A stretch of 62,750 nucleotides of DNA, filler included, from Reclinomonas americana ATCC 50394 (taxonomy: Eukaryota): NCBI GenBank assembly GCA_048213135.1. It is 4 parts of 2 records of this genome, joined end to end, with 100 filler letters (N's around TTAATTAATTAA, not from the genome) between each part and the next. Parts side by side here need not be neighbours in the genome. Positions count along the whole stretch, not along the records: positions 26,080 to 56,405 come from PS015387.1; 3 more parts are not named here. One strand, written 5' to 3'. Below are positions 10,628 to 57,754 of the stretch, one piece after another. Made by a program: the position numbers and the translations under genes. Under the pieces are notes generated by a model, which did not search any database, was not told the DNA's origin, and was given only the letters and a program-made list of their open reading frames with translations. The first letter of the stretch is position 1. Each line of letters opens with the position of its first letter.

Positions 10628-10727
10628 NNNNNNNNNNNNNNNNNNNNNNNNNNNNNNNNNNNNNNNNNNNNTTAATTAATTAANNNNNNNNNNNNNNNNN
10701 NNNNNNNNNNNNNNNNNNNNNNNNNNN
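10628..10727. other. Artificial scaffold linker (N44-TTAATTAATTAA-N44)
   Basis: Six-frame-stop 12-mer flanked by Ns; identical to 25980-26079 and 56406-56505. Confidence 0.97.
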
Positions 10728-13265: not shown

Positions 13266-16200
13266 TCATGTCGTCTGCAGTGTCCTGGCGCCGGGTCCAC
13301 CTGGTCCGCGACCCCATACGCGGAATGAGCTGTCGGAGCTGCAGGAGACCAGGTACTTGCCCTTGCTGTCAAACACCACATCCTGCACGCAGTCCTCGTG
13401 GCCGGTGAGCTCCGTCGCCAATCTCATGTCGTCCGTGTCGAAGCTGGCGAGGAAGAGGATGAGGAGGAGCAAGTCAGCGTGGTGGAGGTCATTCAGCATA
13501 CAGTCGTCGGTTGGAGACGCAACATCTTCACAGTCTGGTCGTCACTGGCCACCGCCAAGTACCGGCCGGAGGGATCAAAGGCACCGCGGTTGGCTGGGTG
13601 CTGTCCGGCTTCGCCTCTCGTTCGCTCTGCCACCATGCGCACATCCCATAGCACCACCACGCCGTCGGCATCGGTCGACGCAATGGTGTCTCCGCGCAGG
13701 TTGAAAAAGGCCGAATTGCAGGCGTTGCCGTGGCCGTAGAAGGTCTGAATGCAGAGTGCCGTGCGTGCATCCCACAACGACACAGTCTTGTCGCCGGAGC
13801 AGGTGCACAGGTTGTTGGAGAAGGGCTGGAAGGTGACAAAATTGACGGAATCCACGTGACCGCGGAATGTCTGTCGGCACCGTTCGCTGCGCGACCACGT
13901 GTGGTGTGAGTCTCTTCCTACTACTCTCTTGAGAAGTCAACGTCGCCACAGTACCTGTTGAGATCCCACAGCTTGGCGGTGTGATCCAGCGAACACGATG
14001 CCAAAAAGTCACCGCTTTCGTGGAAGGCGCACGCCCACACGGCTTGAGCGTGGTCCGAGAAGGTCACCGAGCAGCAAGCATGCGCAAAGTCCCACAGCTT
14101 GATGGTCCCGTCGCCCGACGATGTCGCCAAGTGGGTGCCACTGGAGCGCATGAGGAGGTGAGCGAGGGGGGTCGGAGAGCAAGAGGGAGAGGGAGAGGGA
14201 GAGGGAGAGGGAGAGTGAGAGGGAGAGTGAGAGGGAGAGTGAGAGGGAGAGGGAGAAGGGAGGGAGAAGGAGGGAGAAGGCAGGAAGTAAGAAGAAGTGA
14301 GAAGAAAACGGAAGAGAGAAGGGAGATGCGAGAGGGAGAGATAGAGACAAGGAGGAGGAGGAGGAGGAGGCGAAGAAGAGAGAGAGAGAGAGGAAGAGGG
14401 AGAGGAAGAGGAAGAAGAAAACGCAGGCGTTGATGATGAAGATGAAGCAGAAGCATAGAAAGAGGCAGCAGGAGGAGAGGGAGGAGGAGAACAACAAACA
14501 ACAACACCAACAACGATCAAAAGAAGAAGCGGAAACTCAACAACAGAACGAGCAAAAGGGAGGAAGGATGAAGAGGACGGCGCTTCTCTTCTTTCGCTTC
14601 TGGTTTTCTCTCTCACATCGCCATCGCTCTGCATCCCATCAAGACACACACGCACCGTGGATGGAAATCGATGCAGGAGAGCCAGTCCTTGTGTCCGTCG
14701 CCACTCATGATCAGTGCGCCCTTCTCCAACGACCACATCTTCCACGTGGTGTCGTCCGAGGCCGTGGCCAAAATGTCCTTCTTCGGGTGCAACGCCAGCG
14801 AGCTGATGCTCATGGCGTGCGCCACATTGATTTGACCGGGCATGGAGAGCGAGTCCAGCGGTGCCGGATCAATGACCATGTGCAAGAAGGGATTCTCCTG
14901 ATCGTCCGGCGGCAACACACTGTCCTTGCCGCGCTTTCGTCTCTGCGCACGAAAAGAAATCGAATGAGTGAGCATCATCACGACTCTTGGTGGTAGTTGT
15001 GACGCAACTGTGCTTGACTCGGCCGGCTTGCTGGTGGGCGACTTGTCTTGACTCAACAACGCCACCTCCTGCTCCAGCGAGGTCACCTTGGCGGCCAGCT
15101 TGTCGCGCTCCAACCGTGCCATCATCTTCTCCTTCATGGCCGCATCGTACTTGCGCTTCAGCTCGTTCATGGCCGGCTCGAAGCGGTCAATGTGTGTCTT
15201 CAGTCGCTTAATGTCCTTGATCAACTTGTTCTTCTCCTGCACCACTCGTTGGTGGTGCATGCGATGCATGTCACGCTCGCGTCGTAGCTTGTCCCAGGTG
15301 TTCTTTGCTTTTCTGTGACGTTGGGAAGGCGCGTTAATGGACAAAATGGGAGAGAAATATTCAAGAAGTGCACGCAACGATGCAATCGACTGCGCCTGGC
15401 TCAGCTCTGTCTCCAACTCGGCCGCTCGCTCCTTCAGGCGGTCATTCTCCACGTACACATCGGGTACAACAGAGGCCAAGTCGGCAGCTGCGCCAGACTG
15501 CGACTTTTCGTACCATTCCGACTGCGCGCAACGCAAGTGGGTTAGCCGAAGGAGGGGAAGTCGAACTGCTTTGCTTGTCTGTCTCTTAATTGGTCTCACT
15601 CGCACACACTCACTCACTCACTCGCATACTCACCCGTGCACTCACTAACGCACTTTACCACACACTCCCTCGTTCAGTCACTAATACATCAAAACCACCC
15701 ACGCACTCGCTCACCAGTTCAGTCACTTACTCTCACAAACGTACTCACTTTGCTCTATAGACACTCACTTGCTCATCTGACACCTCACTCACTCAATCCC
15801 CTTTCCCATCTCTCTCTCCCTCTCTCGCTCACCTGAAACGCATCAAGCGTGCGCTGCATGCCCGCACGAATCAAGTAGTTGCGCATAAAGTCCTCAATCA
15901 CTTCCGGTCGTCGCACCACCTGTGGCCGCAAATCGCTCGCCGATCCCTTGCCGCGCGACAAACCACCAGCACCACCGGCCGCGCCACGTGACTGCTGCGC
16001 CAATCGCTTCTCCTCTGCAGCAATGAAACAGACAAAAGAGTCAATAAAATGAGGAGAGAAAGGCAGGGCGCAGTTGAGAGAGCGAGAGATAGTGTGGGAG
16101 AGACAGGCACGTCAAGAAACGATGTACAACGCGTGAAGAAGACTGGGCGCAAGCGATCGAGACAGAAAGCGAAGCCCACATACAAGACGTAGATACCGAT

Positions 16201-25979: not shown

Positions 25980-26079
25980 NNNNNNNNNNNNNNNNNNNNN
26001 NNNNNNNNNNNNNNNNNNNNNNNTTAATTAATTAANNNNNNNNNNNNNNNNNNNNNNNNNNNNNNNNNNNNNNNNNNNN
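25980..26079. other. Artificial scaffold linker
   Basis: N44-TTAATTAATTAA-N44. Confidence 0.97.
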
Positions 26080-26840
26080 TGTCCTCGTCCTCTCACTCGC
26101 CTTTCGCCTCTCAAATGAGACGACCTCTGCTTGCGGCTCCTGTGCACCGCAAGTACTCTGACCGCCACGCCACTGCGCATTCGCTTGCGCGCAGGTCACA
26201 CTGTGCAAGTCGCTCCGGAGTGACTGCGGTGCTCGGAGTGCCTTGTGCACAGCCGCCGATGGGCAGAGCCCGCGGCCGGCGCCTCTTCAGTCGCTCACGT
26301 TACACATGCACGCGTGTGCACTGCCTGCAAGTTTGTTGCTGTCTCTCTCACTCTGCATTTGTGCCAGTGGCGACGAGGAGGTCGTGTTGAGTGGCGATGC
26401 CTTTGCTCCTGCTTGCACGCAGTGGGGCGATAACATGGACACTGGTGGTGGAGGGCGGTCGGTGCTGCGCGGTGGCGAGGACTGTTTGTACTTGAATGTG
26501 TGGATGCCTTCGTGGGTGGCGCAAAAGATTGCCTCGTCGTCGTCTGCCGAGGCGGTCGATGTGCAGTTGCCGGTGCCGGTGTGGATCTACGGCGGCGGTT
26601 TCACCAACGGCTATACCTTCAATCCGTACTACAGTTGAGGGAGGCAGCATGCAGCTGCTGCCTGGGGAAGACTGCCTTGCTGACATCTTTGCAGACGGAA
26701 CTAATTTCGTGGCCGAGCAGCAGGAGATCATCTTTGTCAGCGTGGCGTACTGGTATCTTTGGTCTCCTGGTGTGGCATTCATCTGGGGGGGAATGGTGTT
26801 GGGGTGTGACTGTCAATACAGTCATTCTCGGGTTTGCCGG
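26080..26840 (+). pseudogene. Decayed partial duplicate of the carboxylesterase gene at 39047
   Basis: Colinear with ~38998-39819. Exon 1 carries several small deletions (signal peptide eroded, frameshifts); exon 2 is near-identical; homology stops after CATTCTCGGGTTTGCC, before the catalytic GESAG. Confidence 0.88.
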
Positions 26841-33400: not shown

Positions 33401-36248
33401 AGGAACTGTCGGGCGAGATTGAAGAGGTTTGTTTCTCAAATGTGAACAAACCGCCTCTGCAAGTCCGTGTAACTAACCGTATGTTGCACGCTCTTTCAAG
33501 CTTCTGGACGGTGGTGTCAAAGACTTTACCGCACTCACCCTGGTGATTAGCGAGTCCATCAGCGGATGCGCGATCTGTTGCATCCTTTTCGGTGCCTACT
33601 GGTTTCTCACGCGACAAGTCAGGCTGATCGATCAGCAGATCAGTTGCGCACGCACATGGCGGTAAGTGTAATTCTCTGAAACTCACTCATGTGCCGCTTG
33701 GTGTTGCAGAGTTCTTCAAGCGACTTCTGCTGTTGGTGCCAATGGACACGGTACAGTCGACTGAAGAAGTCAAACTGCAACTGCTGCCCGGTTTGCTTTC
33801 GTGTCTCTGTTGCACCCGTTTTATATGTGTACCGTGTACGCTGACGTTGAGCATGATTGTAGAATCTGTGCTCAAGTCAATGGAGGTCTCGCAGCGGATG
33901 AACGAGAGTGAGCAAATGTTCAAGAAGCTCATCCAGCGTGCGTGTGATTCTCATTCGAGAAAGAGAGCAAGAGCAGCACTTTCGCTGACTTTACTTGTCG
34001 TGCACGACAATCACAGGCCATGCTGTAGTGCTCACGACTGATGCGGGCATCATTGAGTCCGTGAACCACACCTTCTGTCGCCTCCTTGGATACGCCAACG
34101 AAGATATCATTGGCTGGTTTGCTTGCAGCTTCATGTGAAAGCCTCTCCCCGTCGATGCTCTTACTGGTTTGTCTACATGTGTGTCTTCTCAGCAACATCA
34201 AGGTGAGCACCCTAACAATGTCGCTTGCAATAAACGGATTTCGAGATCTCATGCCCGTGTGCTCCATGCAGGTCGTCTGTTCGCCAAACGTGGCCGCTGT
34301 TCACGACAGCTACATTGCTCGTCTTCAGAGTGGTGCCGCTGTATCCACAAGCAAGCATTTTGGCCGCCACTTTATGACCACTGTTGCGTGACGCAGTATG
34401 TCGAATGAGAGCTTACCTGTGCTGAGATGTCGATTGCGCAGGCCTCACATCGCGATGGTCGACAAATTCCTGTCATGGTCACTGTGTCGGAGGGTGCAGT
34501 GGGCTCGAAAAAATTCTTCTCAGCCACACTTCTCGACATGAGCAAGAAGCTGCGCGACAAGGAGGTCCAACGGCTCAAATTAGAAAAGGTACCACCAGCG
34601 TGTGTGTTCGTGTACATTAGTCTCTAGTCATTGTTGGTGATTAATCATGGACAATGTGTCCTACGTGCAGTCAACGAGCCTGGCGCATACGTCGCCCGAC
34701 GCTATCGTTGTGTGCGACACCAAAGGAATCATTCTGGAGGCGAACGAAGCCATGCGTAGCCTGTTCGGCTACTCGTCGGCAACGGAGGTTGTGGGTAAGA
34801 ACTGTCGGATATTGATGGCTGCGTCATTTGGCGACCGCCACAATGAGTTTAGTGTTCTCCTGTTCCTTCACGCACTTGCTCGCCATACTCTCACACCGTC
34901 ATTGGCTCCAGGTACATCGCCAACTATGTCAACCGCAACCCCGGCTCGCATGATATCAGTCACGTTACTGGGATGGAGTTTCGTGCCCACGCAACGCACA
35001 TTCCATGGACTTCACCCACATCGTTTGACAAGAGTGGTTACTTGTGTCTGCACAGCGGTCGCGAAGCGCAGGCGCTGCACAAGAAGGGCACCATGTTCCC
35101 GGTCCGACTGCACCTAAGCGACGTGACGATTATGGGTCACCGATACTTGTGTATGCAGTTGCGGGAGATTGTTGACGAGGCCAAGCAGCGAGCGCGTGTA
35201 CAGGAGTCGATTGACCAAGTATCGAGCATTATGGGGACGTCTCCCGATGCAATCTTCTGGTGTGAGCCTGACGGCACCATTTGCGACTGCAACACCGCCG
35301 TCTCCGCAATGTTCGGCTACACGCTCGAGGAGTGCAAAGCACGCGACAGTTAAGTGGCAGAGAACGATTGGACCAACTACACTTCGTGGCTCTGACACAC
35401 GCTGCTCGTAGTGGTCAACATGGACACTGTGCTGCATCCGACCTCCTTCAGCAGTCTCTACGCGAGCCACCAAGATGACGAGAGCGGCGGCTCAGAAGTA
35501 ACTATAGCCCGCAAGGACGGTTCAACGTTGCGTCAGTCATTGCAGAAGAGTTGTACAGACTGAAGGTTGATGAGGATGAGCTGACGCGCGAGGTGCTGGT
35601 GCGGTTTGCAGTTTTGCGGCTTTTGTCACCTTCCGCACTTCCACCCTGTCGTATGAGTCGCGCGTGCTGTGTCGTGTGTCGGCCATCAACCAGCAACTAC
35701 AGCAAGCCCATAAACAGGAACAACGCAACGAGATCATCGTAAAGGTATGGGCCGTCATCATTTCCTCCACTGCAAGCGACTGTTGGTGATCATGTACAAC
35801 CTTCTTGTAGCTGCTTCGCGTCATGTTCCCAGACCCCGTGATGCAGCACCTGCTGCCGCGCAGTGCCAGCATTGCATATGCCGTGCTCAACCCAGTTGCG
35901 TGCGGCAAATTACATCGGTGGGGGGGAGTGCCACTGTCTGCTGATACGATACCTTGCGGCACAGGTGGTGGACCCAAGTGCCGGAGAGACGCTGGTCGAC
36001 TTCCACCCCTCAGTGACTGTCGTGTTTGTCAAATTCTACGGCTTCAAGCGGCCCAAGTCGGAGAGTGACCCGGAACTGGTCTCCGTGTCCCTGACAGAGA
36101 AGGTCATCAACTTGAGCACCATTTTCGGCATGCTTGATAGCCTCGTGCGCGGACATCGGATCGAGAGGGTCAAGACCATTGGTGTGTGAGGGAGGAGTGA
36201 GGAGAGGGAGCGGATGCACATATGGAAATGCCGACAGATAAACTGAGA

Positions 36249-36313
<65 letters not shown>

Positions 36314-38204
36314 AGAGAGAGTACGTTAGTTGTTGTTGTGTGGAGAGAGAGAGAGTAGTAGAAAGACGAGAGAGGAGGAGGAGAGAGAGAGAGGGTGAGA
36401 GCGTGTGTGTGAGAGGTGGTCGTACNNNNNNNNNNNNNNNNNNNNNNNNNNNNNNNNNNNNNNNNNNNNNNNNNNNNNNNNNNNNNNNNNNNNNNNNNNN
36501 NNNNNNNNNNNNNNNNNNNNNNNNNNNNNNNNNNNNNNNNNNNNNNNNNNNNNNNNNNNNNNNNNNNNNNNNNNNNNNNNNNNNNNNNNNNNNNNNNNNN
36601 NNNNNNNNNNNNNNNNNNNNNNNNNNNNNNNNNNNNNNNNNNNNNNNNNNNNNNNNNNNNNNNNNNNNNNNNNNNNNNNNNNNNNNNNNNNNNNNNNNNN
36701 NNNNNNNNNNNNNNNNNNNNNNNNNNNNNNNNNNNNNNNNNNNNNNNNNNNNNNNNNNNNNNNNNNNNNNNNNNNNNNNNNNNNNNNNNNNNNNNNNNNN
36801 NNNNNNNNNNNNNNNNNNNNNNNNNNNNNNNNNNNNNNNNNNNNNNNNNNNNNNNNNNNNNNNNNNNNNNNNNNNNNNNNNNNNNNNNNNNNNNNNNNNN
36901 NNNNNNNNNNNNNNNNNNNNNNNNNNNNNNNNNNNNNNNNNNNNNNNNNNNNNNNNNNNNNNNNNNNNNNNNNNNNNNNNNNNNNNNNNNNNNNNNNNNN
37001 NNNNNNNNNNNNNNNNNNNNNNNNNNNNNNNNNNNNNNNNNNNNNNNNNNGTACGTGTACGTAGTACGTAGTACGTACGTACGTAGTAGTAGTAGTAGTA
37101 GAGTATAGTAGTAGAGAGAGTAGAGAGAGAGAGAGAGAAGGACGGTTCGAGAGAGAGAGAGAGACAGAAAGAGAGAGAGAACGACTTGTTTTGTGGTTTG
37201 GTGACCGTGCGAGAAAAGAGGGAGTATTGACAATCAGACAGACGGAGGAGAAGGGGAGAGAAGGAAGGAGCGTGGGAGCGAAGCGGCTTGTTTGGAGGAC
37301 AGTGGGTGCTGCCCATTTAGTTAGGAGACAGTGCAGGAAGAGGGGCACGGATGTGCAGACGGAGAGAAAGGCGAAAGAAATGTACGAGAGAGCGAAGGGG
37401 AGAGAGGGAAACGCAGATTATTTGGAGGACGATCGTTGCTGACACCACGTCACTGCATGTAAAGGAGAAGGAAAAGACAGGGAGCTGGTAGATAGACAGA
37501 GAGAGACAGAGATAAGAAGAGATCAGGGCTGTTGACACTGTTTTTCCTTCCGCAGGCTCTGCATACATCGCAGTGTCTGGCATGTACTATCCGAGAACGG
37601 ACCACAGTTCTTCTGTGGTTGATTGGTGCTTGGCTGTGCGGCGCATGCTGACAGAATTTGAAGCCAAGGTCGGCAGGAGTGAGGAAAGCACGCCATCTGC
37701 CCCTGTCGTGCGCTCATCATCGCGTCTTTTTCGTTCTCTCAGACGGGACTGGAAGTGTTGTACAGAATCGGTGTCAACACGGGACCGCTCACGTCGGGTG
37801 CGTACACTCTGCATCGCTGTGCTGCGGTGCAGATCGAGTTCTCACGAGCTCCACAGGCATTGTTGCCGGCCTCATGCCCACGTTCGACGTGTACGGCGGT
37901 AAGTAGTTTCTCACTGTCAATGCTCCCTCCGTTTTCGCGCGAGCAGCGACTGATCCAAGATGTGCACGCGCACAGATGCCGTCAACATGGCATCAAGAAT
38001 GGAGAGCCTGAGTCCGCTCAACCAGATTCAGATTTCCGAGTCCACGCACGCTCTCGTGCGCAGTCACTACGACGTGGAGACGCGCATGGTTGAAGGTGAG
38101 ATGATACGTTTTTTCTGTGTCACGCGGCTCGGAAGCTCACAACACGTCGCTACGCAGTCAAGGGCATTGGTATGACTTCAGCGTTCGTCGTGCACGATCG
38201 ATAG
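27407..38204 (+). CDS. Large multi-TM receptor (TmcB-like N-terminus) with 3 PAS domains and one class III nucleotide cyclase domain
   Basis: Many hydrophobic exons; YPENAELAALYSQFLLEVKQD; PAS segments IESVNHTFCRLLGY, DAIVVCDTKGIILEANEAMRSLFGY, DAIFWCEPDGTICDCN; cyclase ERVKTIGSAY, RIGVNTGP, FDVYGDAVNMASRMES, VKGIG. Single-gene continuity is inferred. Confidence 0.85.
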
Positions 38205-38205
38205 A

Positions 38206-38930
38206 CTAGATAGAATCCGAGTGTATAGTACTGTATCTCTCCGGGAGGTCACATGCACCGTCTGCGATCACGTAACGCCACCAAGTGCAGGGACACGCCT
38301 CCACATTGCGCTCGGCGACCATGAACACCTCCACATCGCCCTCCAGCGCATCGCTCTGCGCTGCGGCTGACAGACCCGGTTAATCGCATTCTACACCTGC
38401 TTGTCAAATGTGCGTCTCGATCAGCGCCACACGTTGTATCCTCGGCATGCGAAGTAGCACGTTCTGTTGAACCCCACAAGAGAGATCAGCACACAGTTGA
38501 CCTCTCTCTTTCTCACGCAGACAGGCACAGAACTCCTCCTGTTATCATCGATCCCATGATCTCCATGGCGCCACCAATCGCAATCACACTGTGAGCGCCA
38601 CACACACATGAGCGCCTCTCTCCCTCTCTGTTCTGCTCGCTCCTCTTTGACACACACACACACACACGGAAGCACGCCTGTTGTTCCGTGTGAGCTCCAC
38701 CTGATCCGTCGCGCCTATCAAGTTGTCAACACATGCACACACGCACACGTACACACACTCTCTCTCACAAACCTTTGGTCGACAACAACGTGGCACAAAA
38801 CTCCAAGTTCTCTCGCGTGTGTCGCCACAACAGCGGAAACTCATCGCGCAACAACAAGAACAGCTCGCGCGTCTGCCTCACAGACACACTCTCAGAGACG
38901 CACACACACAGAGCGAGAGGTGCTCACCAT
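38206..38930 (-). CDS. Small hypothetical spliced gene
   Basis: ATG|gtgagc start-codon intron, then TRELFLLLRDEFPLLWRHTRENLEF..., VIAIGGAMEIMGSMITGG..., SDALEGDVEVFMVAERNVEAC...*. Phases not all resolved. Confidence 0.4.
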
Positions 38931-39046
38931 CACGTGATACTCTCTTCCTCCAGCAACGCAGCTGTCTCGGCGGCTGCCACTGTGCTCATTCTTTCAGTGT
39001 CCTCGTCCTCTCCGTGGCCCTCCGTCACTCGCCTTTCACCTCTCAA

Positions 39047-41903
<2,857 letters not shown>

Positions 41904-42160
41904 GAAGGCAGTCATAAAGGGGGAACGAGATTGTGGAGTGACAAGTTTTGGCTCATTCGACGGAGTGTGTTGTTCATTACGAAGACCTCGCATAGAGAGT
42001 GAACAAAGTAGCACCCCTTGTCTCTGAGGCATCCTCACTATCAACACCACCACCAGCAGCTCTCCTCCCACTGTGCGTGACACATCTGATTGGATTCGAG
42101 CTCTTCCTTCGCTTCGCTGTTGCTTTGGAATGGAGGCAAGCCGACGTGTGGGCAGTCGAC

Positions 42161-45100
42161 ATGAGCGACCTTCTGCGGAGCTGTGGCGAGAGGTGTGTAT
42201 GTGACTGCGTGGAGTGCTGTCTGTTGTGGCGGGAGATGATGGGATGATTGATCTGTCACACACACCTATGTTCGCCCAGTACGTCGACGCACGCAGAGTG
42301 GTGAGCGGCGGGTGCCAGAACGTTGTTGGAGAAGTCTCTTTGTCTCTCGCACACTCACTCTCTCCCGCTCTTGTTCTCACGTGCGCAGCGCGATGACATC
42401 AAGTTGGTGACAGAGGCCTGCCGCACACTCCAAGTGCTCACGGACAGCATGTCTGGTACGCCGTGATCTCTGTCTCTCTCCCTCCACTTCCACCCACAAG
42501 TTAGTCACCTCTACGTGTGCACACAGTGAGACCTCGCGATCGTTTTCTCGACGAGAGCGACATGCGATCGCCACTGGTGTGCATGAAGGGATCGGTGCCG
42601 TACTCAGTCGGCGGTGTGGTGAAGCAGTGCCCGTTGGCCATTTGGATCCCACGCTCGTATCCCGAATCGTGCCCGCTGTTTGTTGTGCGCCCGTCGTCGC
42701 GCTCGACCGAGCCCATGTGCCTCAACGCCAACAATCGGTGGATCAGTGCTGACGGTCTGCTGCCGTTGTTTGTTTCGCCTCTGTGTCTGCGTGTGCTGAC
42801 TGTGTGAACAGGTGTGGTACAGCACGAGTACCTGTCGGTGAGAGTAGTGTTGTTGTCAGATGATGCAAGGTCGTGTCTCACAGGTTCGTACAGACGTGGG
42901 AGTCGAATCACGGCCTGCTTCCGATGGTGGCCATCTTGCGTGATTTGTTCTCCACCGTGCCGCCACTGGTGCCAATCGCATCAGAAACTCTGCCAATGGC
43001 CACCGCCACAGCGCCGTCTGCGTCAGTAGCTGCCGCCACCGCTGCTGTGCCAGTGGAAACGGTCGTCGATGTTGTACCGCAACGCGTGGTGACTTCCGGG
43101 CGCACCCGCATCGCGACGACAACAGCCACAACAGCAGTGCAAGCAGCAGCGGTGCCACCTGTGTCGACCGCGGACGTTGTGGATATTACACGCACACGAA
43201 GTGCGCGAGTGGGTGCTGGTCGTTCTGCGATTGAGCCCTCGGCGCCACCACCACCACCACCACCGCTTCAACCGTCACGAATGCCATCTGCTCCCCCTCC
43301 GCCCCTCCCTCCTCATCCTCCGCCGCCGCCGCCGTCAGCTCCGATCCTTGCGTCGGCACCGACCGGTCTACCGGCACCTCGTCCTCGCATCGATCCCCCA
43401 GACGAGGTGCCGTTTTCAGTTTTGGGTTCGCCACCGACCGCTGCCACGTATAATCGTCACCCGCCGGCGCCAACAGCGCCGACTACGGTGACAGTAGCGC
43501 CAACTGTGCCGTCGCCTGGAGTCGTACGGAGACCCTCGCCGTCGGCGGCTGTGATTACGACGACGACAACGCCAGCACCTGTTGGAGTTGCGCGGAGACC
43601 CTCGCCGTCGGCAGCTGTGACTACGACGACGACAACGCCAGCACCAACGGCACTTGTTGGAGTTGCGCGGAGACCCTCGCCACCTGCATCTGTGACTACG
43701 ACGACGACGACGACGACGACCGCAACACCAATGGTGCCTGTTGGAGCTGTCCGGAGACCCTCGCCGCCGGTAGCAGCTACGACGACTACCACGGCGTCGA
43801 CGGCACCTTTTGGAGCTGTCCGGAGACCTTCGCCACCTGCTGCTGTGACTACGACGACGCCTATTGGAGTTGCACGGAGACTATCGCCGCCTGCTACTGT
43901 GACTACGACGGCGATTGCGACGGCACCAACACCTCTTGAAGGCACACGGAGACCCTCGCCGCCGGCATCAGTTACAACGACGACGACAACAACAACACCC
44001 TCGGCAACAGCTGCTGTTCCTGTTGCTGCATGCCGGGCTTCTCCACCGGCAGCATTTGGCGCAATTGCGCGAGCTGATCCGCCTGCAGCCAGCGCGGTCA
44101 CTTTGCCATCGCCACCACCACCGCCGGTGACTGCCGAAGCGCCTTCTCAGTCGTTGCTGTCGCTGCTTTCGAGTGGCGATCGCACCACCCCGGCCGCCAT
44201 CCATCTTCCCATGTCATTGTGGCAGGTAGAGCAACACAGAACGAGCCTCTTGTTTCCCTTGGTGTACGTGTGTCACAGCCAATTTCTCGCTGCAGGTTCC
44301 TGCCGACGACGACGACGATGACGATGATGATGATGACGAGGATGATGACGAAGCCGATGATGAGCGTGACCATGTCGCCCCGAAACCCCTCGGCGGGTCT
44401 CCGCCTGGAAAGGACGCTGGAAGGAGACCACGTCCCCTTCCTTCTGCATCTTCCTCATCGTCGTCTTCTTCAGCCTCCGCACCGCCACACGCACCACCCG
44501 ACGAAGTGGTGAGCACTCCTCGTGTGTACGGCAGTGCGGAGGAAACGGAGCTGGCCGAGCCGCTTGATCCCGCGCTAGTTGGCAAGGACACTTTTCAACT
44601 GGTGTCCGAGTTGCGTGCGCTGCAGCCGCTGGAAGAGACAGCAAACCGCAGGTTACATGATCTGCAGTACTTGAGCAAGACTATGTACCGGCGGTGAGCG
44701 GCGTTTCGTTGCCCACGATACACGCAAGCTTCTTCGGCCCCTGATCGATTCTCGCAGGTCTGCCGATCGAGCCGACCGCGACCGCAGCCTCACGCAAGTG
44801 CGCGGCGAAATGGACGAGCTGAAGGAACGCAAGAAGCAGATCTTGCGCGTGCTGGTGCAACGAGCCAAGTCCGGCGGTCTGCAAGTGCTGGAGGACAAGG
44901 ACATTTACCTGGCTCTGTTGGAAGAAGTGGATCTCATGTCGCACGACGTGTGGCTCACTCACCACGTGTACCAGAATGGCGACTATCGGTTCGCGGCTTC
45001 GTCCTATTGTTGCTCTACTACCCGCAACAGGCACACTGACAAGTTTCGCGCGTACGTGCAGCTCACGGATGGACATGTTGTGTGACATGGAGACTGCGGT

Positions 45101-47028
45101 TGCTGGTTTGTTGAGCGCACTTGCTGTTGGTGACGGCAAGTCTGTGTCTCACGCGATGGCGTACATGTACAGGGGTGGATTCTGGATTGTTCCTGGCCAG
45201 GCGCCAGCTCTCAGACTACCGAATAGTTGCATCCTCGATGATACTCTTCTTCTTCTTCACACTCACTCTCGTACTTAAGCACGGAGGGTATTCATGGCGC
45301 ATACAGATTCAGGAAGTTGTCACTGGGCGCATCTTCAAGGTGTCTTACGGCGGCAAGCAGTTTGTCTTGAAGGTGGGCGAGCAGCTCCTTCGTTCGTGAT
45401 GCGTGGTTGGACACTCACCGTCACTCGCAGGTGTATCCCTACACCGACAGGACATTGTTTGAGAAGTCGCTGCGTGTGCTCTCCCGTATCAGGCATCCAG
45501 GAGTCATTCAGATCCGAGGTCTATCTTGTCGTTCTTCAAAAGGTTGTACTCTAGCATGCACCGTCCTCACAACACTACTTGCGCAGGCTACTTTGTCGAT
45601 GAGACCTCGCATCAGTATTACTTGCAGATGCCATACTATTCGGGCGGCTCGCTACGGGATTGGCTGGCGACGCATACCTCGTCAACCGTTGAGAATTATT
45701 CAGCCAAGATCGAAGGTTTGTGTGTGTGCGCGAGACGTCGTCATATTCTACAAGTCCGCCAACGTCGAATTCGTGATCGCAGTGATGCGCAACTTGCTGA
45801 ATGCCGTGTCGTTTCTCCACTCGCACGGTATGTGACAGCGGTTTGCCTGCTTATTACTCCCCCGTTGTCACCAAGTGTATGCGACAGGCATTGTGCATCG
45901 CGACCTGAAACCATCAAACGTGGTGATGAGTGCACTGTCGCAGCCGGTGATCATCGATGTGGATCTTGCAAAGGACCTGTCCATGCAGGGAATGTTGTTT
46001 GGCGACGACCGCACTGTGACCGGCAGAAGCGTTGTTGTCGGCACTCACGGCTATCAGGTGCGTCTCAATGATGTTGACGTGGGGGAACAATGATTGTGTT
46101 GTTGACTGTGAAAATATCAGGCGCCCGAGTTGATGCGAGGAGGCAAGCACACAAAGGTAGCTTCATTTGTTGACAACATCCATGGGTACGGTGTTTTTCC
46201 TTACCTCGCTGTTTTCGTTATTGCCACAGGCCTCGGACATGTATGCTGTTGGAATCGTCTTTCTCAAGTGTTGCCTCGGGGAAGCATTCGACCCGACCCG
46301 GCTGCAGTACGTCCGTCAGACTGGCAGGTACATGCTGCCCGAGTTCCCACAGCAGCTCCGTGCAATGCGGCTCCTCATTGAGGACCTCACTGCTGAGGTG
46401 GGTGGTGGCGCACCCGCTGACACCTTGCCTGTCCGCCACACGTTCTCAACATCTCTGGCAGAACCCCGAGGAACGGCCGCAGGCGCACGAACTGCTCTCG
46501 AATGCTGCGTTTGTCGTGACGGACATGCTGAGTCGGCACGGGCACTTGCGGCCTGCGTTGGAGAAGGCACATCGTCTGCAAGATGCTCTGCGTTCACTGC
46601 AGGGCCGAGTCCCTCTTCGTTCTGCTGTAGCCGATCGGCCATCAGTGCAAGTGAACAGAGCGCGTGTCGTCGATGATCTGGTTGACAAGGTTTGGAGGGC
46701 GTGCGGGGCACAGCAATCACGCTAGTGTTCGCTCTCACTCTGCGCGGCGCAGATTCAGTGCATGCCCGAAGACGACATTTTCTTGGCATGGAGCGTTGCG
46801 TTGCCGTGCATTCACAGTCGTCTTTGTGCACACTAACCATTTGGATGCGCTGACAGTGCAAGTTTGAGGGCGAGGAGGGAGTTGACGCCGGCGGTGTGTC
46901 GAATGAGGTGCAAAGCGAGTTCTGGAGCCAGCTGGAGGAATCGACATATGTGCAGCGCAATGTGGATGGCGTGTGTTTGGTGGCTGCACCGGGAGGCATG
47001 CGTGCCGACAGGTGCAGTGTGTGTTGTG

Positions 47029-47114
<86 letters not shown>

Positions 47115-48416
47115 TATGAGTTTATCCACCTGGAGACTCATCTCGTGTATGGTGTCACAGGTACCGACAGCTGTGGGTTGGTGCGTTGTGTTTGTGTGTG
47201 CCGCAGTGACGAGGAAGATAATGTGCCTCACTCGCGCTTCAGGTGTGGGCAAGATGATGGCGCGATCTCTCGCCGTGTTCAAGACGCTGCCGATCGAGTT
47301 CCACGAGTGCGTCTACGAAGCGCTGCTGGGTCGCCTACCAAGAATAGGTGACGATCATCCGGGCGGTGGCGAGTCGTTCGAGCAGCTGCTGGTGCGGGCA
47401 CGACTTTTCTCCATTCTGTTCACACCCACAGTATGTTTTTGTTCTCATCCCATGCTACGTAGGAGGACACGTCTCGTACCGAGGGCTTGCTGAGCGAGCT
47501 GCTGGACTATACCGACAGTACGTCGTCCCTCTTTACGAGAACAAAATCGATCTCTCTCGCCTCATGTTGCCATTGCTGCAGGGTGGAATCCAGAGCAGGC
47601 TCGCAGTTGTCGGTCTACATTGCGCGACTGGCGGCAGGCAGTGGAACTGGTAACGCTGCCCGAGGTGTCGCTAGGCGGACACGTTCTCGAAGTCGACAGC
47701 GACACGGCGACGGAAGGTCAGTCGTCGTGGTGTTCCACGCGCAAATTGATGCACAACTCAATGCGCACGCGCAGCTCACGTGCGAACGCACATGATGCTG
47801 TACTTGTACACGGAACTGATTGGTGGCCGCTGGGCGGCGTTCGAAAGTCTGCACAGCGGATTCACCAGGCATGTGTGATCACAGCTTTACTTTTCGTTTG
47901 CGGGCGTGCTGACACCCTCTCGTACCAGTGTGTGCGGCTCCGAAATGGAGTCTGCACTGAACGACATGACTGGTGCCGAGGTGCAGCTGGCGTTCCAGTG
48001 TCGGCGACACATTGACGCTGCCATGCTGCTCAACAACACCTACTTTGTGTTTCGCGAGGGTGCTCGTCCCGAGGAGGAGCAGTGGTTCACAGCTGTGCGT
48101 CTGCGAGTTGTTTGTCGTTGCTTTCTTCCTTTGTTGACGATTTTGCGTGCGCGGACAGATTGTGCGCCGCCTCTCGCCGACACTACTGCGTCGTCTCTTG
48201 CGCTTCGCGACGGGTCTCTCGGCGATTCCTCCTTCTGGAAATCTGGCGCAGAGAATTTCTGTCACATTCCTCGGCCCTGGGCGCAGTTCTGGAACACTGC
48301 CCTCCTCGCATACTTGTTCCTCGGTGCTCGATATGCCGCAATACGATTCAGAGGCACAAATGGAGGAGCGGCTGCTGGAGTCGATCGGTCAAGAATTCGC
48401 GCTGCTCTTTGCATAA
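42161..48416 (+). CDS. UEV (TSG101-like) - Pro/Thr-rich - coiled coil - protein kinase - HECT E3 ligase fusion
   Basis: UEV: LVCMKGSVPY...PLAIWIPRSYPESCPLFVVRP...ISADGVVQHEYL..W...LFSTVPP. Kinase: HPGVIQI, YYSGGSL, HRDLKPSN, GTHGYQAPE, SDMYAVG, PEERP. HECT: FEGEEGVDAGGVSNE, LLRFATG, LPSSHTC, LDMPQY. Confidence 0.85.
43515..43990 (+). repeat. Coding tandem repeat: 7 x G(V/A/T)xRR(P/L)SP...poly-Thr
   Basis: GGAG(T/C)..CGGAGACCCTCGCC..GTGACTACGACG units seen directly in the DNA. Confidence 0.9.
47031..47109. repeat. (GT)n microsatellite, intronic
   Basis: Perfect dinucleotide run of about 39 units. Confidence 0.95.
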
Positions 48417-48499
48417 ACTAGTAATCATGTATCGCATCATCCGCCCGCGTTGCGAACAATCGCGTTCATATACCTCAACGAAAAAGCCAGGCACTACGA

Positions 48500-51400
48500 C
48501 TACACCGACGCAGACGGACCAGCAGCAGCGGCAGAAGCAGGAGCCGGCACGAGTTGGATGCGAGAAGTCTCCGCAGCGCGCACCTGCTCGTCGGTCCAGT
48601 GCATAGGCTTCAACCGGCCACCGAGCCAGTACTGGACTTGATCGTCGTAATGCGGGGTGCCGCGAACGCCACTCTGGCCCGTCGGCAGGATGTTCATCGA
48701 GCGGGACAAGTCGGCACAGTCGACAACCATGCGGTACGAGGGCAGGAAAATGTGTGCCAGGTAGTTGTTCACGGGATCGGCGGCCGTGTTGTTCAACGTG
48801 TCAGCATCCTGTGCGCGACGAGAAAATGAGACTGTGCGGTCCACTGCAGCATAACTGCTCTCAACGCACTCCGCCAAGCTCGAATGGGCCACGGTTGAAG
48901 GCGCCGACCGCCGCGCCAATCGGGTGCTCCATGGTGAACTGGTGCAGACGGCCCCATCGCCACTTGTTGCGGTTCGAACCTGCAGCAGCAGCACGAGTTA
49001 AGGTCGGCTACCAACAAGTACCAGACCAGAGGGCTGACACACACTCACCCAGCCTCCGCTTCAGCTCGTCATGTGCGTCCTGCAGCGCATGTGCCACCAG
49101 CTGCTGCTTGCCACCCACTTGGCGCAGCAGTTCCGAGTCCTGGTCCAGTTGCAACAGTCGAACCAGAGTGTTGATCTCCGAGCCATACAACGCACCTGGT
49201 GACCGTCAGCGTGAGCAACGAGTCGTGTGTCTGGCGCGCACACATACATCCTCGTTCAACGCAACTGTCCTCCTTGATCAGGGGGAACACCAGCTTGCCG
49301 GTCATCATGTCGGTGACCTCCGGGCCGATCGTGTCCTCCAGCACATTGCGCAGCAGACGAGCTCGGAACACCTGGAGTTGGAGTGCGATTCTCACGTGAA
49401 TGGCAGAGAATAATGCACGCAAGAGGACCACACAATGAACCTGGTAAATGGCAGCGGGGGCAGATTGTGCATCCATGACGCCGTCAAAGTTCAAGAACTC
49501 CTGGAACAAGTCTCGCAACTCCTGGCTGAGGCCACTGACATCGACTTCGCGAACACTGCGTGCCAGGCAAGACGATAAGTGAGACGAGCACGAACGTGGC
49601 TGACCACTCGTCATGCGACGCAACGCGGCCTGCAGATCCAGTGCCGCCAGCGACTTGATATCCATCTGGTGACGACGCGCGTCCTCCAGAGTGTACTTGC
49701 CACCATCTGCAGTGGTTTCCTGCAGACACAATCACGTCAGCCATACCGATTTCCACATGCAGAAAACACAAAGAGACGACGCACAATAATGAGATCCTTG
49801 ATGCGACGCGCACGGTTGCCGTTCAGCCACAGATTGCCGAGATCGTACGGGTACGTCTCCGGATCGATGACGCGATGATTGCAGCTGATAATGTATCCTA
49901 CATCAATGGGCACGGGCAGTGTGAGTCATTGCATTGCGTCCATCCGCAACCACATTAAAAGAAGCGGACCTTGCGCAGGATTCAGACAGTGCGGCATTTC
50001 GTGCTTCGGCACAAAGCCAGTCCATTCGGTGCGGCTCGTGTTGCCGGGCTGCGGGAAGCGCGGCGACACGGAGCGAATCGGCACTGCAGCCGCACGCGTG
50101 AGCGGATAGTCGCGCGATGTGCCAACAATGCGTTAACTCACCAGCACCGGACAAGCAGTAACCAATGTTGCCGTCGACATCGGCGTAGGTGAGGTTGAGG
50201 CACACGCAGTCGAAGCCCTGTACAAAGGCCTTGAAGCTGGCCCAGTCGTGCAGGTGCATTTGGTCGCGCAAGTAGTGCACAAAGTACGGCATTGTGCCGG
50301 CCCAGCACTGGCGCTCTGCCGGCAGCTCGCTGGCGGCCACTGCATGTGCATGAGTGAGTGCGACAGCTTGTTTTGTACCACACAAAAAATACAAACCTCG
50401 AGGGAGGGGTGGCGACAGGAACACTGCCTGCACTGCAATAGCGCGGTCAACGCTATGCGGCGCCGACAGCACCGAGCTGATCACTGGACCGTGATGCGAC
50501 ACGCGCACCGTCTGAAAATGAGAGGCGTGCACGTGAGTTTCTCTTGAACTGTGCACAGGGGGGGAGTGTGCGTCTCCACAAACCAGCGTTTCGTCGGGCT
50601 TGCTCTTGATCTTGATCACCTCGTGGATCACCTGGAAATCACGCCACTGCTCGTCGTACTTGTACTGCCCGTCATTCTCCGGGTTCACCTCCTCGATGAA
50701 GATGTCGGCAATGTCGGCGAATCCGAGTGTGATGCCGTACGTGATGCGGTCGGTGTGGCCAATGGTGACGCCTGGCATGGTGGGCATGGCCACGCCTGGG
50801 GGAAGGGGGCAAGGGGCAAGGGGGAATGGGGAAGGGGCAAGGAGAAGACAGAGGGACAAGGGAGAAGGGAGAGGAGGGGGGAGCAATGAGAGTATGAACT
50901 GTGACGAAAAGCACTTGTCTTCAACAAGCGTACGCACAGATACCATATGACACGCCCACACACTCACACACTCGCACAAGACATGTTTCTTTGTCTCTCT
51001 CTCTCTCTCTCTCCCTCCCTTCCCTCCCTACAAACCAGTGACATTGATGCCGGCACTCTCGCACTTCAGGTGGAACTCCATCCAGATCGACGGCAGACCG
51101 ACAGCCAAGTGCGGATCCGACGCCAAAATCGGCTTGCCAGTGTCGGTGAGAGCGCCACTGGGGTGGGGAGAGTTGGCGATGAGCCGCGTGCATCAAAATG
51201 TGCGACGTGCAAGTAACTGGTAGGCTCACCTGACCACCCACGAGTTGGAGCCCTGGCCCGTGGGAATGGCACGCAGCGGCTCCAGGTTCACCTCGTTGAC
51301 GCCGAGCGGCAGGATGGTGGGCACATACGACGGGTGCCAGAAATCGAGCTCCTTGGCCGCCTCTTCGCCGATGCGGTCCACAATGAGCTGGTTCACCAGC

Positions 51401-51818: not shown

Positions 51819-52090
51819 CTTTGTGTGGCACATAAGATGATCCATGCAAACTGACACACACCATGATTGTACGTAATGCNNNNNNNNNNNNNNNNNNNNN
51901 NNNNNNNNNNNNNNNNNNNNNNNNNNNNNNNNNNNNNNNNNNNNNNNNNNNNNNNNNNNNNNNNNNNNNNNNNNNNNNNNNNNNNNNNNNNNNNNNNNNN
52001 NNNNNNNNNNNNNNNNNNNNNNNNNNNNNNNNNNNNNNNNNNNNNNNNNNNNNNNNNNNNNNNNNNNNNNNNNNNNNNNNNNNNNNNNNN

Positions 52091-54497: not shown

Positions 54498-54573
54498 GTT
54501 TGTAATCACACACATATGCACGCGCGTGAAGATGGCCCCGACNNNNNNNNNNNNNNNNNNNNATCTCTCCACA

Positions 54574-56405: not shown

Positions 56406-56505
56406 NNNNNNNNNNNNNNNNNNNNNNNNNNNNNNNNNNNNNNNNNNNNTTAATTAATTAANNNNNNNNNNNNNNNNNNNNNNNNNNNNNNNNNNNNNNN
56501 NNNNN
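56406..56505. other. Artificial scaffold linker
   Basis: N44-TTAATTAATTAA-N44. Confidence 0.97.
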
Positions 56506-56941: not shown

Positions 56942-57754
56942 GTTCGGCACCTGGCACGAGTCACTGTGGGATGCGCCGCGTCCCAACACCAACGAGACGA
57001 ACCAGCAGGCGCGTGACTTTGTGCGATCGCTGGAGGCCGACATGCAGGGCACGCATTTGGCGCCAGTGCTGCAAGAGTGCACGGCGCTGGCGGTTCCGCC
57101 GGGCATGTCGCACCAAATGTTTGTGCTGACCGACGGTCGTGTGAAGAACAAGCCGGATTGCTTCGACATTGGTGCGATGATGGACGTCGTCGCAGCGTGG
57201 TTCTCCAACTCGTTCTCATCCTTTTGGGTTTGGTACATGCAGCTCGCCGCAATGCTCAGAGCTGCCGCATCTTCACGATTGGCATTGGAGACGATGTCGA
57301 CACGCATTTGGTGGTCGAGTTGGTGCGTTTTGCGTCTGTCTAGTTGTCACGCTCGCAAGAATGCGTCGTTGCTGACCGACGTTGTGCGGCTATGGTAGGC
57401 CCGGTTGACCAATGGTCGACACAGTTTTGTGGAGCAGATCGACAACGAGTCGATCACGGATACGGTGCTGGCCATGCTTGCTGGTGTGTTAGGGGAGGGA
57501 AAGGGAAAGAGAGGGAATGAGGGAAGGGAGAGAGAGAGAGAGGAGAGAGAGAGGAGAGAGATAAAGTAACACGCAGTGGAGTGGAACGAAGACCGAAACG
57601 TGACGGAAAGGGAGAAGTAGGAAGAAGTAAATGCGAGGACGAGAACAGCGTAGGAGCGAGACGACAGCGAATGAGAAGAAGGAGAAGAAGGATGAGGATA
57701 NNNNNNNNNNNNNNNNNNNNAGACGTACGAGAGAGTGAGGTAGGAGGAGGAAGG

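What the first reader, a model, noticed from the sequence alone, without database searches (positions are those of the whole stretch)
42161..48416. UEV-kinase-HECT fusion: ubiquitin reader, kinase and E3 ligase in one chain
Seen: TSG101/Vps23-type UEV, Pro/Thr-rich linker, acidic tract, coiled coil, kinase and a complete HECT with catalytic Cys (LPSSHTC), on one strand joined by short introns with no evident intergenic break. Known: TSG101 is UEV-PRR-CC-steadiness box; UEVs bind ubiquitin and P(S/T)AP; HECT ligases feed cargo to ESCRT. Inference: a TSG101 paralogue whose C-terminus was replaced by kinase+HECT, a self-contained sorting or defence module. I do not recall this architecture being described.
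Basis: partly seen in the sequence, partly recalled or inferred. Interest (0 to 1): 0.8.

Follow-up and report, generated by a model that had tools for sequence, protein, structure and literature searches.

The report
UEV head on a kinase-HECT ligase
A protist gene most likely joins a TSG101-type ubiquitin-reading domain to a kinase-plus-HECT ubiquitin ligase of an already described family, so the new part is the reading head and not the kinase-ligase pair.

Summary
There is a TSG101-type UEV, a 421-residue Pro/Thr/Ala linker, an acidic run, a helical region, a protein kinase and a complete HECT with its catalytic Cys. About 24 GT-AG introns of 54-88 nt (one of about 200 nt) join them into one open frame of about 1,510-1,520 residues.

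The kinase-HECT join is certain: one exon (46462-46689) carries the kinase end and the HECT start. It is not new. The block from 44.8 kb to the stop aligns with a Rhodelphis WD40-kinase-HECT protein (E 1.5e-88). The pairing was reported in 2013 and studied in Leishmania as TKUL/HECT12.

The UEV join is probable (about 0.8) but unproven. Intron 44694-44757 scores above 17 of 18 validated introns and in the top 0.4% of decoys. The exon before it has no usable ATG. No RNA run was listed, no genome is held and no orthologue was found.

No UEV was found in 37 long HECT relatives.

Verdict: a new variant of a known kind, of moderate interest.

The parts
42161..42990 (+). UEV domain. Exons 42161-42196, 42280-42300, 42389-42455, 42527-42754 and 42812-42837, plus the start of exon 42894-44225.
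   Evidence: Pfam UEV E 1.3e-11. TSG101 UEV is the best PDB match, E 0.006. Atlas nearest clusters are UEV, score 0.87, a lead only. Exons join in frame through five GT-AG introns of 56-88 nt. The ATG at 42161 is the first Met after the stop at 42098-42100.
42991..44225 (+). Pro/Thr/Ala-rich linker in the same long exon as the UEV end. It holds PSAP x3 and PTAP x1 (about 43236-43481) and seven RRxSP-poly-Thr repeats (about 43527-43961).
   Evidence: One 1332-nt open exon. Motif positions. P(S/T)AP: 4 seen against 0.90 expected in shuffles, P 0.013. RRxSP: 7 seen against 0.04 expected. Tandem DNA repeats of period 75-153 nt.
44226..44295 (+). Intron between the linker exon and exon 7. The exact sites are uncertain.
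   Evidence: Three frame-keeping options score 5.0-7.0 with the splice-site model. The 70-nt option lies in the top 15% of decoys.
44296..44693 (+). Exon 7: a run of 16 Asp/Glu, a run of 8 Ser, then a helical stretch ending ...SKTMYR.
   Evidence: Coding-like codon scores of 0.65 and 0.44 per codon. The only in-frame ATG of its ORF is at 44683, four codons before the stop at 44695-44697, so if translated it must be spliced to the linker exon.
44694..44757 (+). The decisive 64-nt intron that joins the UEV half to the kinase-HECT half.
   Evidence: The donor GTGAGCGG is the same 8-mer as in intron 2, and the acceptor is CGCAG. Splice-site score 14.4, above 17 of 18 validated introns scored leave-one-out and reached by 0.4% of 6480 decoy GT-AG pairs. 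A GTRAG donor with a YAG acceptor keeping the frame arose in 1.55% of 2000 shuffles.
44758..45081 (+). Exon 8: the pre-kinase helical region conserved in the kinase-HECT family. Its 3' end is uncertain.
   Evidence: Its residues 17-74 align with P0038 residues 846-903, E 1e-6, without gaps. The 16 codons before its first ATG (44810) score 9.1, above all 277 intron windows. No donor for the next intron scores well; the best is 1.5.
45141..45225 (+). Micro-exon ...GVDSGLFLARRQLSDYRI. Its 5' end is uncertain (45116 or 45141).
   Evidence: Aligns with P0038 residues 920-940, GVDQGLFLRERKFEDY. A stop lies upstream in its frame at 45112-45114, and the first in-frame ATG is only at 45238, so it is an internal exon.
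45307..46512 (+). Protein kinase domain. Exons 45307 (or 45280)-45372, 45431-45518, 45587-45687, 45755-45827, 45888-46057, 46121-46156 and 46230-46397, plus the start of 46462-46689.
   Evidence: The in-frame model is. It is collinear with the P0038 kinase. Acceptor 45307 gives a gap-free match and the best score, 4.0. The PDB matches of the catalytic-loop exon are 9eed and 9gmp.
46462..46689 (+). Link exon: the kinase end (NPEERPQAHELLSNAAF) and the HECT start (VQVNRARVVDDLVDK) lie in one uninterrupted exon.
   Evidence: The alignment with P0038 runs through it.
46753..48416 (+). HECT domain. Exons 46753-46794, 46857-47011, about 47214-47391, 47463-47517, 47582-47716, 47775-47874, 47929-48094 and 48159-48416. 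Catalytic Cys codon at 48315-48317; stop TAA at 48414-48416.
   Evidence: Pfam HECT E 6.7e-16. E6AP C-lobe E 2.6e-8. Exon models. The mini-exon IQCMPEDDIFLAWS matches the family motif IGDWPEDALLGEW. The sites of the intron holding a (GT)n run, 47012-47213, are ambiguous.

Best explanation
The locus is one gene for a protein of about 1,510-1,520 residues. It is a TKUL-like kinase-HECT ubiquitin ligase whose usual N-terminal targeting region is a TSG101-type UEV domain followed by a Pro-rich linker with P(S/T)AP motifs.

Shown here:
- The domains are present.
- The kinase and HECT share an exon.
- The region from the pre-kinase helix to the C-terminus is homologous to kinase-HECT proteins of Rhodelphis, Polarella, Amoebophrya and one metagenome.

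Inferred:
- The 64-nt intron at 44694-44757 is spliced, so the UEV half and the ligase half form one chain.

Proposed mechanism, by analogy only:
- The UEV reads ubiquitin or P(S/T)AP ligands and brings the enzyme to already ubiquitinated or ESCRT-linked targets.
- The kinase acts as an internal switch, its autophosphorylation licensing the HECT, as is reported for Leishmania TKUL.
- The HECT Cys then transfers ubiquitin.
- The linker's own PSAP/PTAP motifs and its seven RRxSP sites may form a fold-back latch on the UEV that phosphorylation controls.
For: - Domains.
- One open frame after splicing.
- Kinase and HECT in one exon.
- Family homology: model residues 660-1511 against P0038 residues 798-1599, E 1.5e-88, 29% identity. 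P0116 gives E 8.7e-39, P0017 E 2.3e-22 and P0049 E 2.5e-12.
- Pkinase plus HECT was found in 3 of the 37 long relatives scanned at E 1e-5 or better.
- PDB 9gmp is the second-best solved match of the catalytic-loop exon and shares the motif PVIxDxxxAKD.
- The TKUL mechanism comes from passages of 10.64898/2026.05.08.723729 and PMC13196369.
- For the fusion: intron 44694-44757 scores 14.4, above 17 of 18 validated introns and in the top 0.4% of 6480 decoys.
- Exon 7 has no in-frame ATG except four codons before its stop but is coding-like.
- The 16 codons before the first ATG of exon 8 score above all 277 intron windows.
- Only 112 nt separate the alternative stop from the alternative ATG, against 358 nt between the upstream esterase ORF stop and the UEV ATG.
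- All four family members examined have 640 residues or more before the kinase.
Against: - There is no transcript evidence and no orthologue with the same head.
- Homology with P0038 cannot be carried upstream of the first Met of exon 8: shuffle P is 0.38 for the exon 7 tail and 0.07 for the tail plus the pre-Met part. Homology therefore says nothing about the decisive junction.
- Some frame-keeping GT-AG pair of typical length arises in 51% of shuffles.
- The other two frames of the pre-ATG stretch also score fairly high, 7.3 and 4.9, and the non-coding model was trained on introns only.
- The exon 8 to micro-exon junction has no good splice sites; the best score is 1.5.
- The genome is compact: the convergent penicillin-amidase ORF stops 83 nt from the HECT stop, so very short spacers occur.
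- No UEV was found in 0 of 37 long HECT relatives at E 1e-5 or better, nor in the 3 rescanned at E 0.1 or better.
- Several TSG101 residues that I recall as PTAP-pocket residues (Y63, Y68, M95) are not matched in the HMMER alignment, although a two-residue loop insertion makes that alignment uncertain.
Confidence: 0.75

Rival explanations
1. There are two adjacent genes. The first is a TSG101-like protein of about 705 residues (UEV, linker, acidic tract, short helix) that ends at TGA 44695-44697. The second is a separate TKUL-like kinase-HECT that starts at ATG 44810, perhaps with the AG at 44756-44757 used as a 5' (trans-)splice acceptor.
For: - A stop follows the putative donor directly, and an in-frame ATG lies 112 nt downstream.
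- Significant homology to P0038 begins at that Met.
- Spacers in this window can be very short: 83 nt between convergent stops.
- Relatives of the ligase occur in dinoflagellates and syndinians, groups that I recall as using spliced-leader trans-splicing.
Against: - The intron is among the best-scoring in the gene.
- The pre-ATG stretch looks coding.
- 112 nt would have to hold a 3' end and a promoter or 5' UTR.
- The ligase would have only about 120 residues before its kinase, against 640 or more in the four relatives examined.
- The UEV protein would lack the Vps23 core.
Confidence: 0.2
2. The locus is a decaying or mis-assembled copy, so the open frame is my construction and no single functional protein exists.
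For: - The exon 8 to micro-exon junction has no convincing splice sites.
- The intron with the (GT)n run has ambiguous sites.
- The window holds several N runs elsewhere.
- The window's own protein was not met in two protein collections.
Against: - After splicing there is no in-frame stop or frameshift across about 1,520 codons.
- The catalytic motifs of the kinase and HECT are intact.
- Collinear homology runs over 850 residues.
- No N run lies inside 42161-48416.
Confidence: 0.05

Closest known systems
Leishmania mexicana TKUL / HECT12 (LmxM.34.4000). Fokkens et al. 2025, Mol Cell 85:3711, known to me only from the reference list and passages of PMC13196369 and 10.64898/2026.05.08.723729. 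The kinase-domain structure is said to be PDB 9gmp; that link comes from an earlier scan note, and the PDB title itself reads 'Map kinase kinase-like protein'.
   Same: A protein kinase sits directly N-terminal to a HECT in one chain. The catalytic-loop exon hits 9gmp as the second-best solved structure (E 5e-4) and shares IVHxDLKPSNV...PVIxDxxxAKD. The papers report that autophosphorylation is required for ligase activity.
   Different: This locus has HRD where 9gmp has HGD, and DVD in place of DFG. It has a UEV plus Pro-rich head, and I saw no statement about the TKUL N-terminus. I could not align the full TKUL sequence, so orthology was not tested.
Kinase-HECT proteins of the 'GL-Bikonta' group, HECT class IV (Grau-Bove et al. 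2013, PMC3673628), and the relatives found here: P0038 (Rhodelphis marinus, EukProt), P0116 (Polarella glacialis, CAE8697355.1), P0049 (Amoebophrya sp. AT5.2) and P0017 (a JGI metagenome protein).
   Same: Collinear homology from the pre-kinase helix through the kinase and a divergent HECT to the C-terminus. The Pfam HECT scores are low, 70-88 bits, in these four relatives. An Atlas neighbour cluster is named G2E3-like.
   Different: The heads differ: WD40 in P0038 and no Pfam match in the other three. None has a UEV.
TSG101 / Vps23 (ESCRT-I)
   Same: A PF05743 UEV at the N-terminus, then a Pro-rich region with P(S/T)AP motifs, then a helical stretch.
   Different: There is no Vps23 core or steadiness box on any of the 26 + strand ORF pieces. 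The linker is about 420 residues with seven RRxSP repeats. A kinase-HECT stands where the ESCRT-I assembly domain would be.

Membership tests
TSG101/Vps23 (ESCRT-I subunit) | N-terminal UEV domain (Pfam PF05743) | tested here: met
   E 1.3e-11, 44.8 bits against a cut-off of 27. TSG101 UEV is the top PDB match.
TSG101/Vps23 (ESCRT-I subunit) | Pro-rich region carrying a P(S/T)AP motif (a feature I recall for human TSG101) | tested here: met
   PSAP at residues 241, 257 and 273, and PTAP at residue 319. Four seen against 0.90 expected.
TSG101/Vps23 (ESCRT-I subunit) | C-terminal Vps23 core / steadiness box that builds ESCRT-I | tested here: not met
   No such Pfam family at E 0.1 or better on 26 of 26 + strand ORF pieces covering 42205-48603.
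TSG101/Vps23 (ESCRT-I subunit) | Binding of ubiquitin and PTAP peptides by the UEV | not testable with these tools
   The alignment to TSG101 covers only 47 residues and has a probable loop insertion.
TKUL-like kinase-HECT ligases | Kinase domain and HECT domain in one polypeptide, kinase first | tested here: met
   One exon, 46462-46689, holds the kinase end and the HECT start.
TKUL-like kinase-HECT ligases | Collinear sequence homology to family members across the kinase and HECT | tested here: met
   P0038 E 1.5e-88 over 874 columns, P0116 E 8.7e-39 and P0017 E 2.3e-22. 9gmp is among the two PDB hits at E 1e-3 or better.
TKUL-like kinase-HECT ligases | HECT catalytic Cys present | tested here: met
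   LPSSHTC, Cys codon at 48315-48317, aligned with LPTAHTC of P0038.
TKUL-like kinase-HECT ligases | Ligase activity gated by kinase autophosphorylation | not testable with these tools
   Known for TKUL only from paper passages. In this locus the Lys, HRD Asp, Asn and the first Asp of DVD are present.

The most novel reading that the evidence does not exclude
A ubiquitin- and PTAP-reading UEV has been wired directly to a phosphorylation-gated HECT ligase. One protein would then read a ubiquitin or late-domain mark, check it through its own kinase switch, and write more ubiquitin. Its own PSAP/PTAP motifs and seven RRxSP sites would act as a phospho-controlled fold-back latch on the UEV. This would be an ESCRT-I-independent route from cargo recognition to ubiquitin amplification, and a natural case of TSG101 late-domain logic reused outside ESCRT.
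Probability: 0.15. Interest if true: 0.65.

Novelty: new variant of a known kind. Interest (0 to 1): 0.45.

Why it matters
Kinase-HECT ligases have only recently been given a mechanism, an allosteric kinase switch in Leishmania TKUL. Their heads appear to be interchangeable targeting modules.

A UEV head would be the first in which the target class can be guessed from sequence: ubiquitin itself, or P(S/T)AP late-domain motifs. That gives a testable handle on what this protist family does. It would also show that the front half of TSG101 can be reused without ESCRT-I.

If the two halves turn out to be separate genes, the locus is an ordinary TKUL-like gene next to a truncated TSG101-like gene.

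Tried and rejected
- **Whole genome:** none is held, so I could not look for a canonical Vps23.
- **RNA runs:** none was listed, so no reads could be laid on the locus.
- **Earlier notes on this genome:** none.
- **Word-index protein search, link exon:** 426 candidates, none at E 0.01 or better.
- **Word-index protein search, UEV exon:** my first query was in the wrong reading frame by my own error and is void. The correct one had 10 candidates and none significant.
- **HMMER search of 1.84 billion representatives with the last HECT exon:** 268 hits at E 1e-3 or better, and no orthologue. The best real matches were 47-49% identical short fragments, and the top row, P0001, was a nine-stretch repetitive match. 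Of the 150 listed I scanned only the 37 of 685 residues or more with Pfam. The 113 shorter ones were dropped because they cannot hold the full architecture.
- **Metagenome scan:** one 1223-nt contig at 43% identity, which was of no use.
- **Carrying P0038 homology upstream into exon 7:** not significant.
- **Reading the in-frame TGA at 47876-47878 as a recoded stop:** rejected, because a 54-nt GT-AG intron removes it.
- **Exon 8 to micro-exon splice sites:** no good pair.
- **First guess for the kinase's first exon, 45280:** replaced by 45307.
- **Coiled coil:** judged by eye only; no predictor was run.
- **Literature:** a search for HECT + UEV + protein kinase + domain architecture gave 8 papers. 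None reports this fusion in its title or the start of its abstract, and I read passages of only one of them. Supplements of the 2013 HECT survey, which may list architectures, were not opened.
Full report
**What the window is**

The window is eukaryotic. GC content is about 56%, and genes on both strands are packed about one per 4-5 kb. Introns are short. No whole genome is held, no RNA run was listed, and the scan had no earlier notes on this genome. Everything below therefore rests on the sequence and on homology.

**Checking the observation**

I scanned 26 + strand ORF pieces with Pfam.
- UEV (PF05743): E 1.3e-11 at 42505-42804.
- Pkinase: E 1.5e-6 at 45836-46090.
- HECT: E 6.7e-16 at 48138-48413.
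- No Vps23 core on any of the 26 pieces.

TSG101 UEV chains are the best solved-structure matches of UEV exon 4 (E 0.006). E6AP is the best match of the last HECT exon (E 2.6e-8).

I built the exon model by hand from the print-outs and checked it by script.
- It starts at ATG 42161, the first Met after a stop.
- It has 25 exons. The introns are GT-AG and 54-88 nt long, except for one of about 200 nt that holds a (GT)n run.
- It ends at TAA 48414-48416.
- The result is one open frame of about 1,510-1,520 residues.
- An in-frame TGA at 47876-47878 lies inside a 54-nt intron.

The linker (residues 150-570) is 21% Pro, 18% Thr and 18% Ala. It is followed by a run of 16 Asp/Glu and a run of 8 Ser. 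HRDLKPSN, APE and LPSSHTC are all present, and DFG is replaced by DVD.

**The kinase-HECT part is a known family**

One exon, 46462-46689, encodes both the last kinase subdomain and the first HECT strand. That join does not depend on any splice choice.

A full HMMER search with the last HECT exon found 268 proteins at E 1e-3 or better, but no orthologue. I scanned the 37 of the 150 listed hits that have 685 residues or more with Pfam.
- All 37 have a HECT domain.
- 3 also have Pkinase: P0017, P0038 and P0116.
- None has a UEV.

A looser rescan of P0017, P0116 and P0049 found no UEV either. According to their sources, P0038 is from Rhodelphis marinus, P0116 from Polarella glacialis and P0049 from Amoebophrya; P0017 is a metagenome protein.

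My spliced model aligns with these relatives as follows.

| Relative | Model residues | Relative residues | E-value |
|---|---|---|---|
| P0038 | 660-1511 | 798-1599 | 1.5e-88 (29% identity) |
| P0116 | 848-1517 | 798-1536 | 8.7e-39 |
| P0017 | 941-1511 | 710-1316 | 2.3e-22 |

The relatives also corrected the model in three places.
- A 14-residue mini-exon (46753-46794) matches the family motif IGDWPEDALLGEW.
- A micro-exon (about 45141-45225...GVDSGLFLARRQLSDYRI) matches P0038 residues 920-940.
- Starting the first kinase exon at 45307 gives a gap-free match.

Grau-Bove et al. 2013 (PMC3673628, passages) already noted 'unusual protein kinase domains' on divergent HECTs of Naegleria and Ectocarpus. 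Two earlier notes of this scan pointed me to Leishmania TKUL/HECT12 and to PDB 9gmp, and I checked both.
- 9gmp is one of the only two solved chains that match the catalytic-loop exon at E 1e-3 or better, and it shares the loop motif.
- Passages in 10.64898/2026.05.08.723729 and PMC13196369 call TKUL a dual HECT ligase and protein kinase. They say its autophosphorylation is required for ligase activity and that a kinase inhibitor blocks it allosterically.
- The primary paper (Fokkens et al. 2025) I saw only as a reference entry.

**Is the UEV on the same chain?**

Working backwards from the ligase:
- The micro-exon has a stop upstream in its frame and no ATG, so it is an internal exon.
- Exon 8 (44758-45081) is homologous to P0038 residues 846-903 (E 1e-6), so it belongs to the ligase.
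- The only plausible break is therefore between exon 7 and exon 8. There, a TGA at 44695-44697 follows the donor, and an ATG lies at 44810.

Evidence for splicing:
- Intron 44694-44757 is 64 nt long and has the same donor 8-mer as intron 2.
- With a splice-site model built from 18 homology-validated introns it scores 14.4. That is above 17 of those 18 scored leave-one-out, and only 0.4% of 6480 decoy GT-AG pairs reach it.
- A GTRAG donor with a YAG acceptor keeping the frame arose in 1.55% of 2000 shuffles.
- The 16 codons before the ATG score above all 277 intron windows.
- Exon 7 is coding-like but has no usable ATG. It must therefore hang on the linker exon, which is one open frame with the UEV end.
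- A two-gene reading leaves 112 nt for a 3' end and a 5' end. By comparison, 358 nt separate the upstream esterase ORF's stop from the UEV ATG.
- It would also leave the ligase with about 120 residues before its kinase, where four relatives have 640 or more.

Evidence against, or neutral:
- Homology to P0038 cannot be carried upstream of that Met (P 0.38 and 0.07).
- Half of all shuffles give some frame-keeping GT-AG pair.
- The other frames of the pre-ATG stretch also score fairly high.
- The exon 8 to micro-exon junction has no good sites (best score 1.5).
- Spacers here can be tiny: 83 nt between the convergent stops of this gene and the penicillin-amidase ORF.

I put the fusion at about 0.8.

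**How it probably works**

The domains are shown. The chain is inferred. The rest is analogy. The family looks modular: a variable head, a kinase switch and a HECT. Here the head is a TSG101-type UEV.

The linker carries PSAP three times and PTAP once, against 0.90 expected (P 0.013). It also carries seven RRxSP-poly-Thr repeats, against 0.04 expected, and these arose by tandem duplication.

The most economical model has three steps.
- The UEV docks on ubiquitin or on P(S/T)AP ligands.
- Kinase autophosphorylation licenses the HECT.
- The linker motifs compete for the UEV under phospho-control.

The idea that TSG101's own PTAP folds back on its UEV is from my recall, not from any call.

**Novelty**

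Kinase-HECT is already known. I did not find a UEV head on it in any of the following:
- the 37 long relatives;
- the Atlas neighbours of the UEV exon;
- the scan's earlier notes;
- the listing of the one literature search.

These searches are narrow: no architecture database could be queried, and supplements were not read. My verdict is a new variant of a known kind, of moderate interest, conditional on a transcript test.

Noticed in passing
window 4076-4707, 10628-10727, 25980-26079, 36426-37050, 51880-52090, 54543-54562, 56406-56505, 57701-57720: Runs of N (gaps or withheld stretches). They cause the two apparent low-GC windows in the composition profile. None lies inside the finding.
   Followed up: partly
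window 48500-51027, - strand: A penicillin-amidase-family gene (Pfam PF01804 on five ORF pieces) converges on the HECT gene. The two stop codons are only 83 nt apart, so the 3' ends must be very short or must overlap.
   Followed up: partly
window 26162-26635 and 38705-41802, + strand: Two carboxylesterase-family genes on the same strand. The second ends in a hydrophobic stretch that looks like a membrane anchor, 358 nt before the UEV ATG.
   Followed up: no
window 34853-38172, + strand: ORF pieces with a PAS domain and an adenylate/guanylate cyclase catalytic domain, possibly one sensor-cyclase gene. An N run interrupts it.
   Followed up: no
window about 47030-47110: A (GT)n microsatellite of about 40 units inside an intron of the HECT region. 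It makes the donor of that intron ambiguous and gives long spurious ORFs on both strands.
   Followed up: partly
window 44694, 45082, 47875: At three donor sites the G|TGA of the donor itself forms the first in-frame stop of the exon's frame, so an unspliced transcript would stop at once.
   Followed up: no
window 13269-15617, - strand: A WD40-repeat gene. The WD40 head of the Rhodelphis kinase-HECT protein P0038 hits it in tblastn, but only as generic repeat similarity.
   Followed up: no
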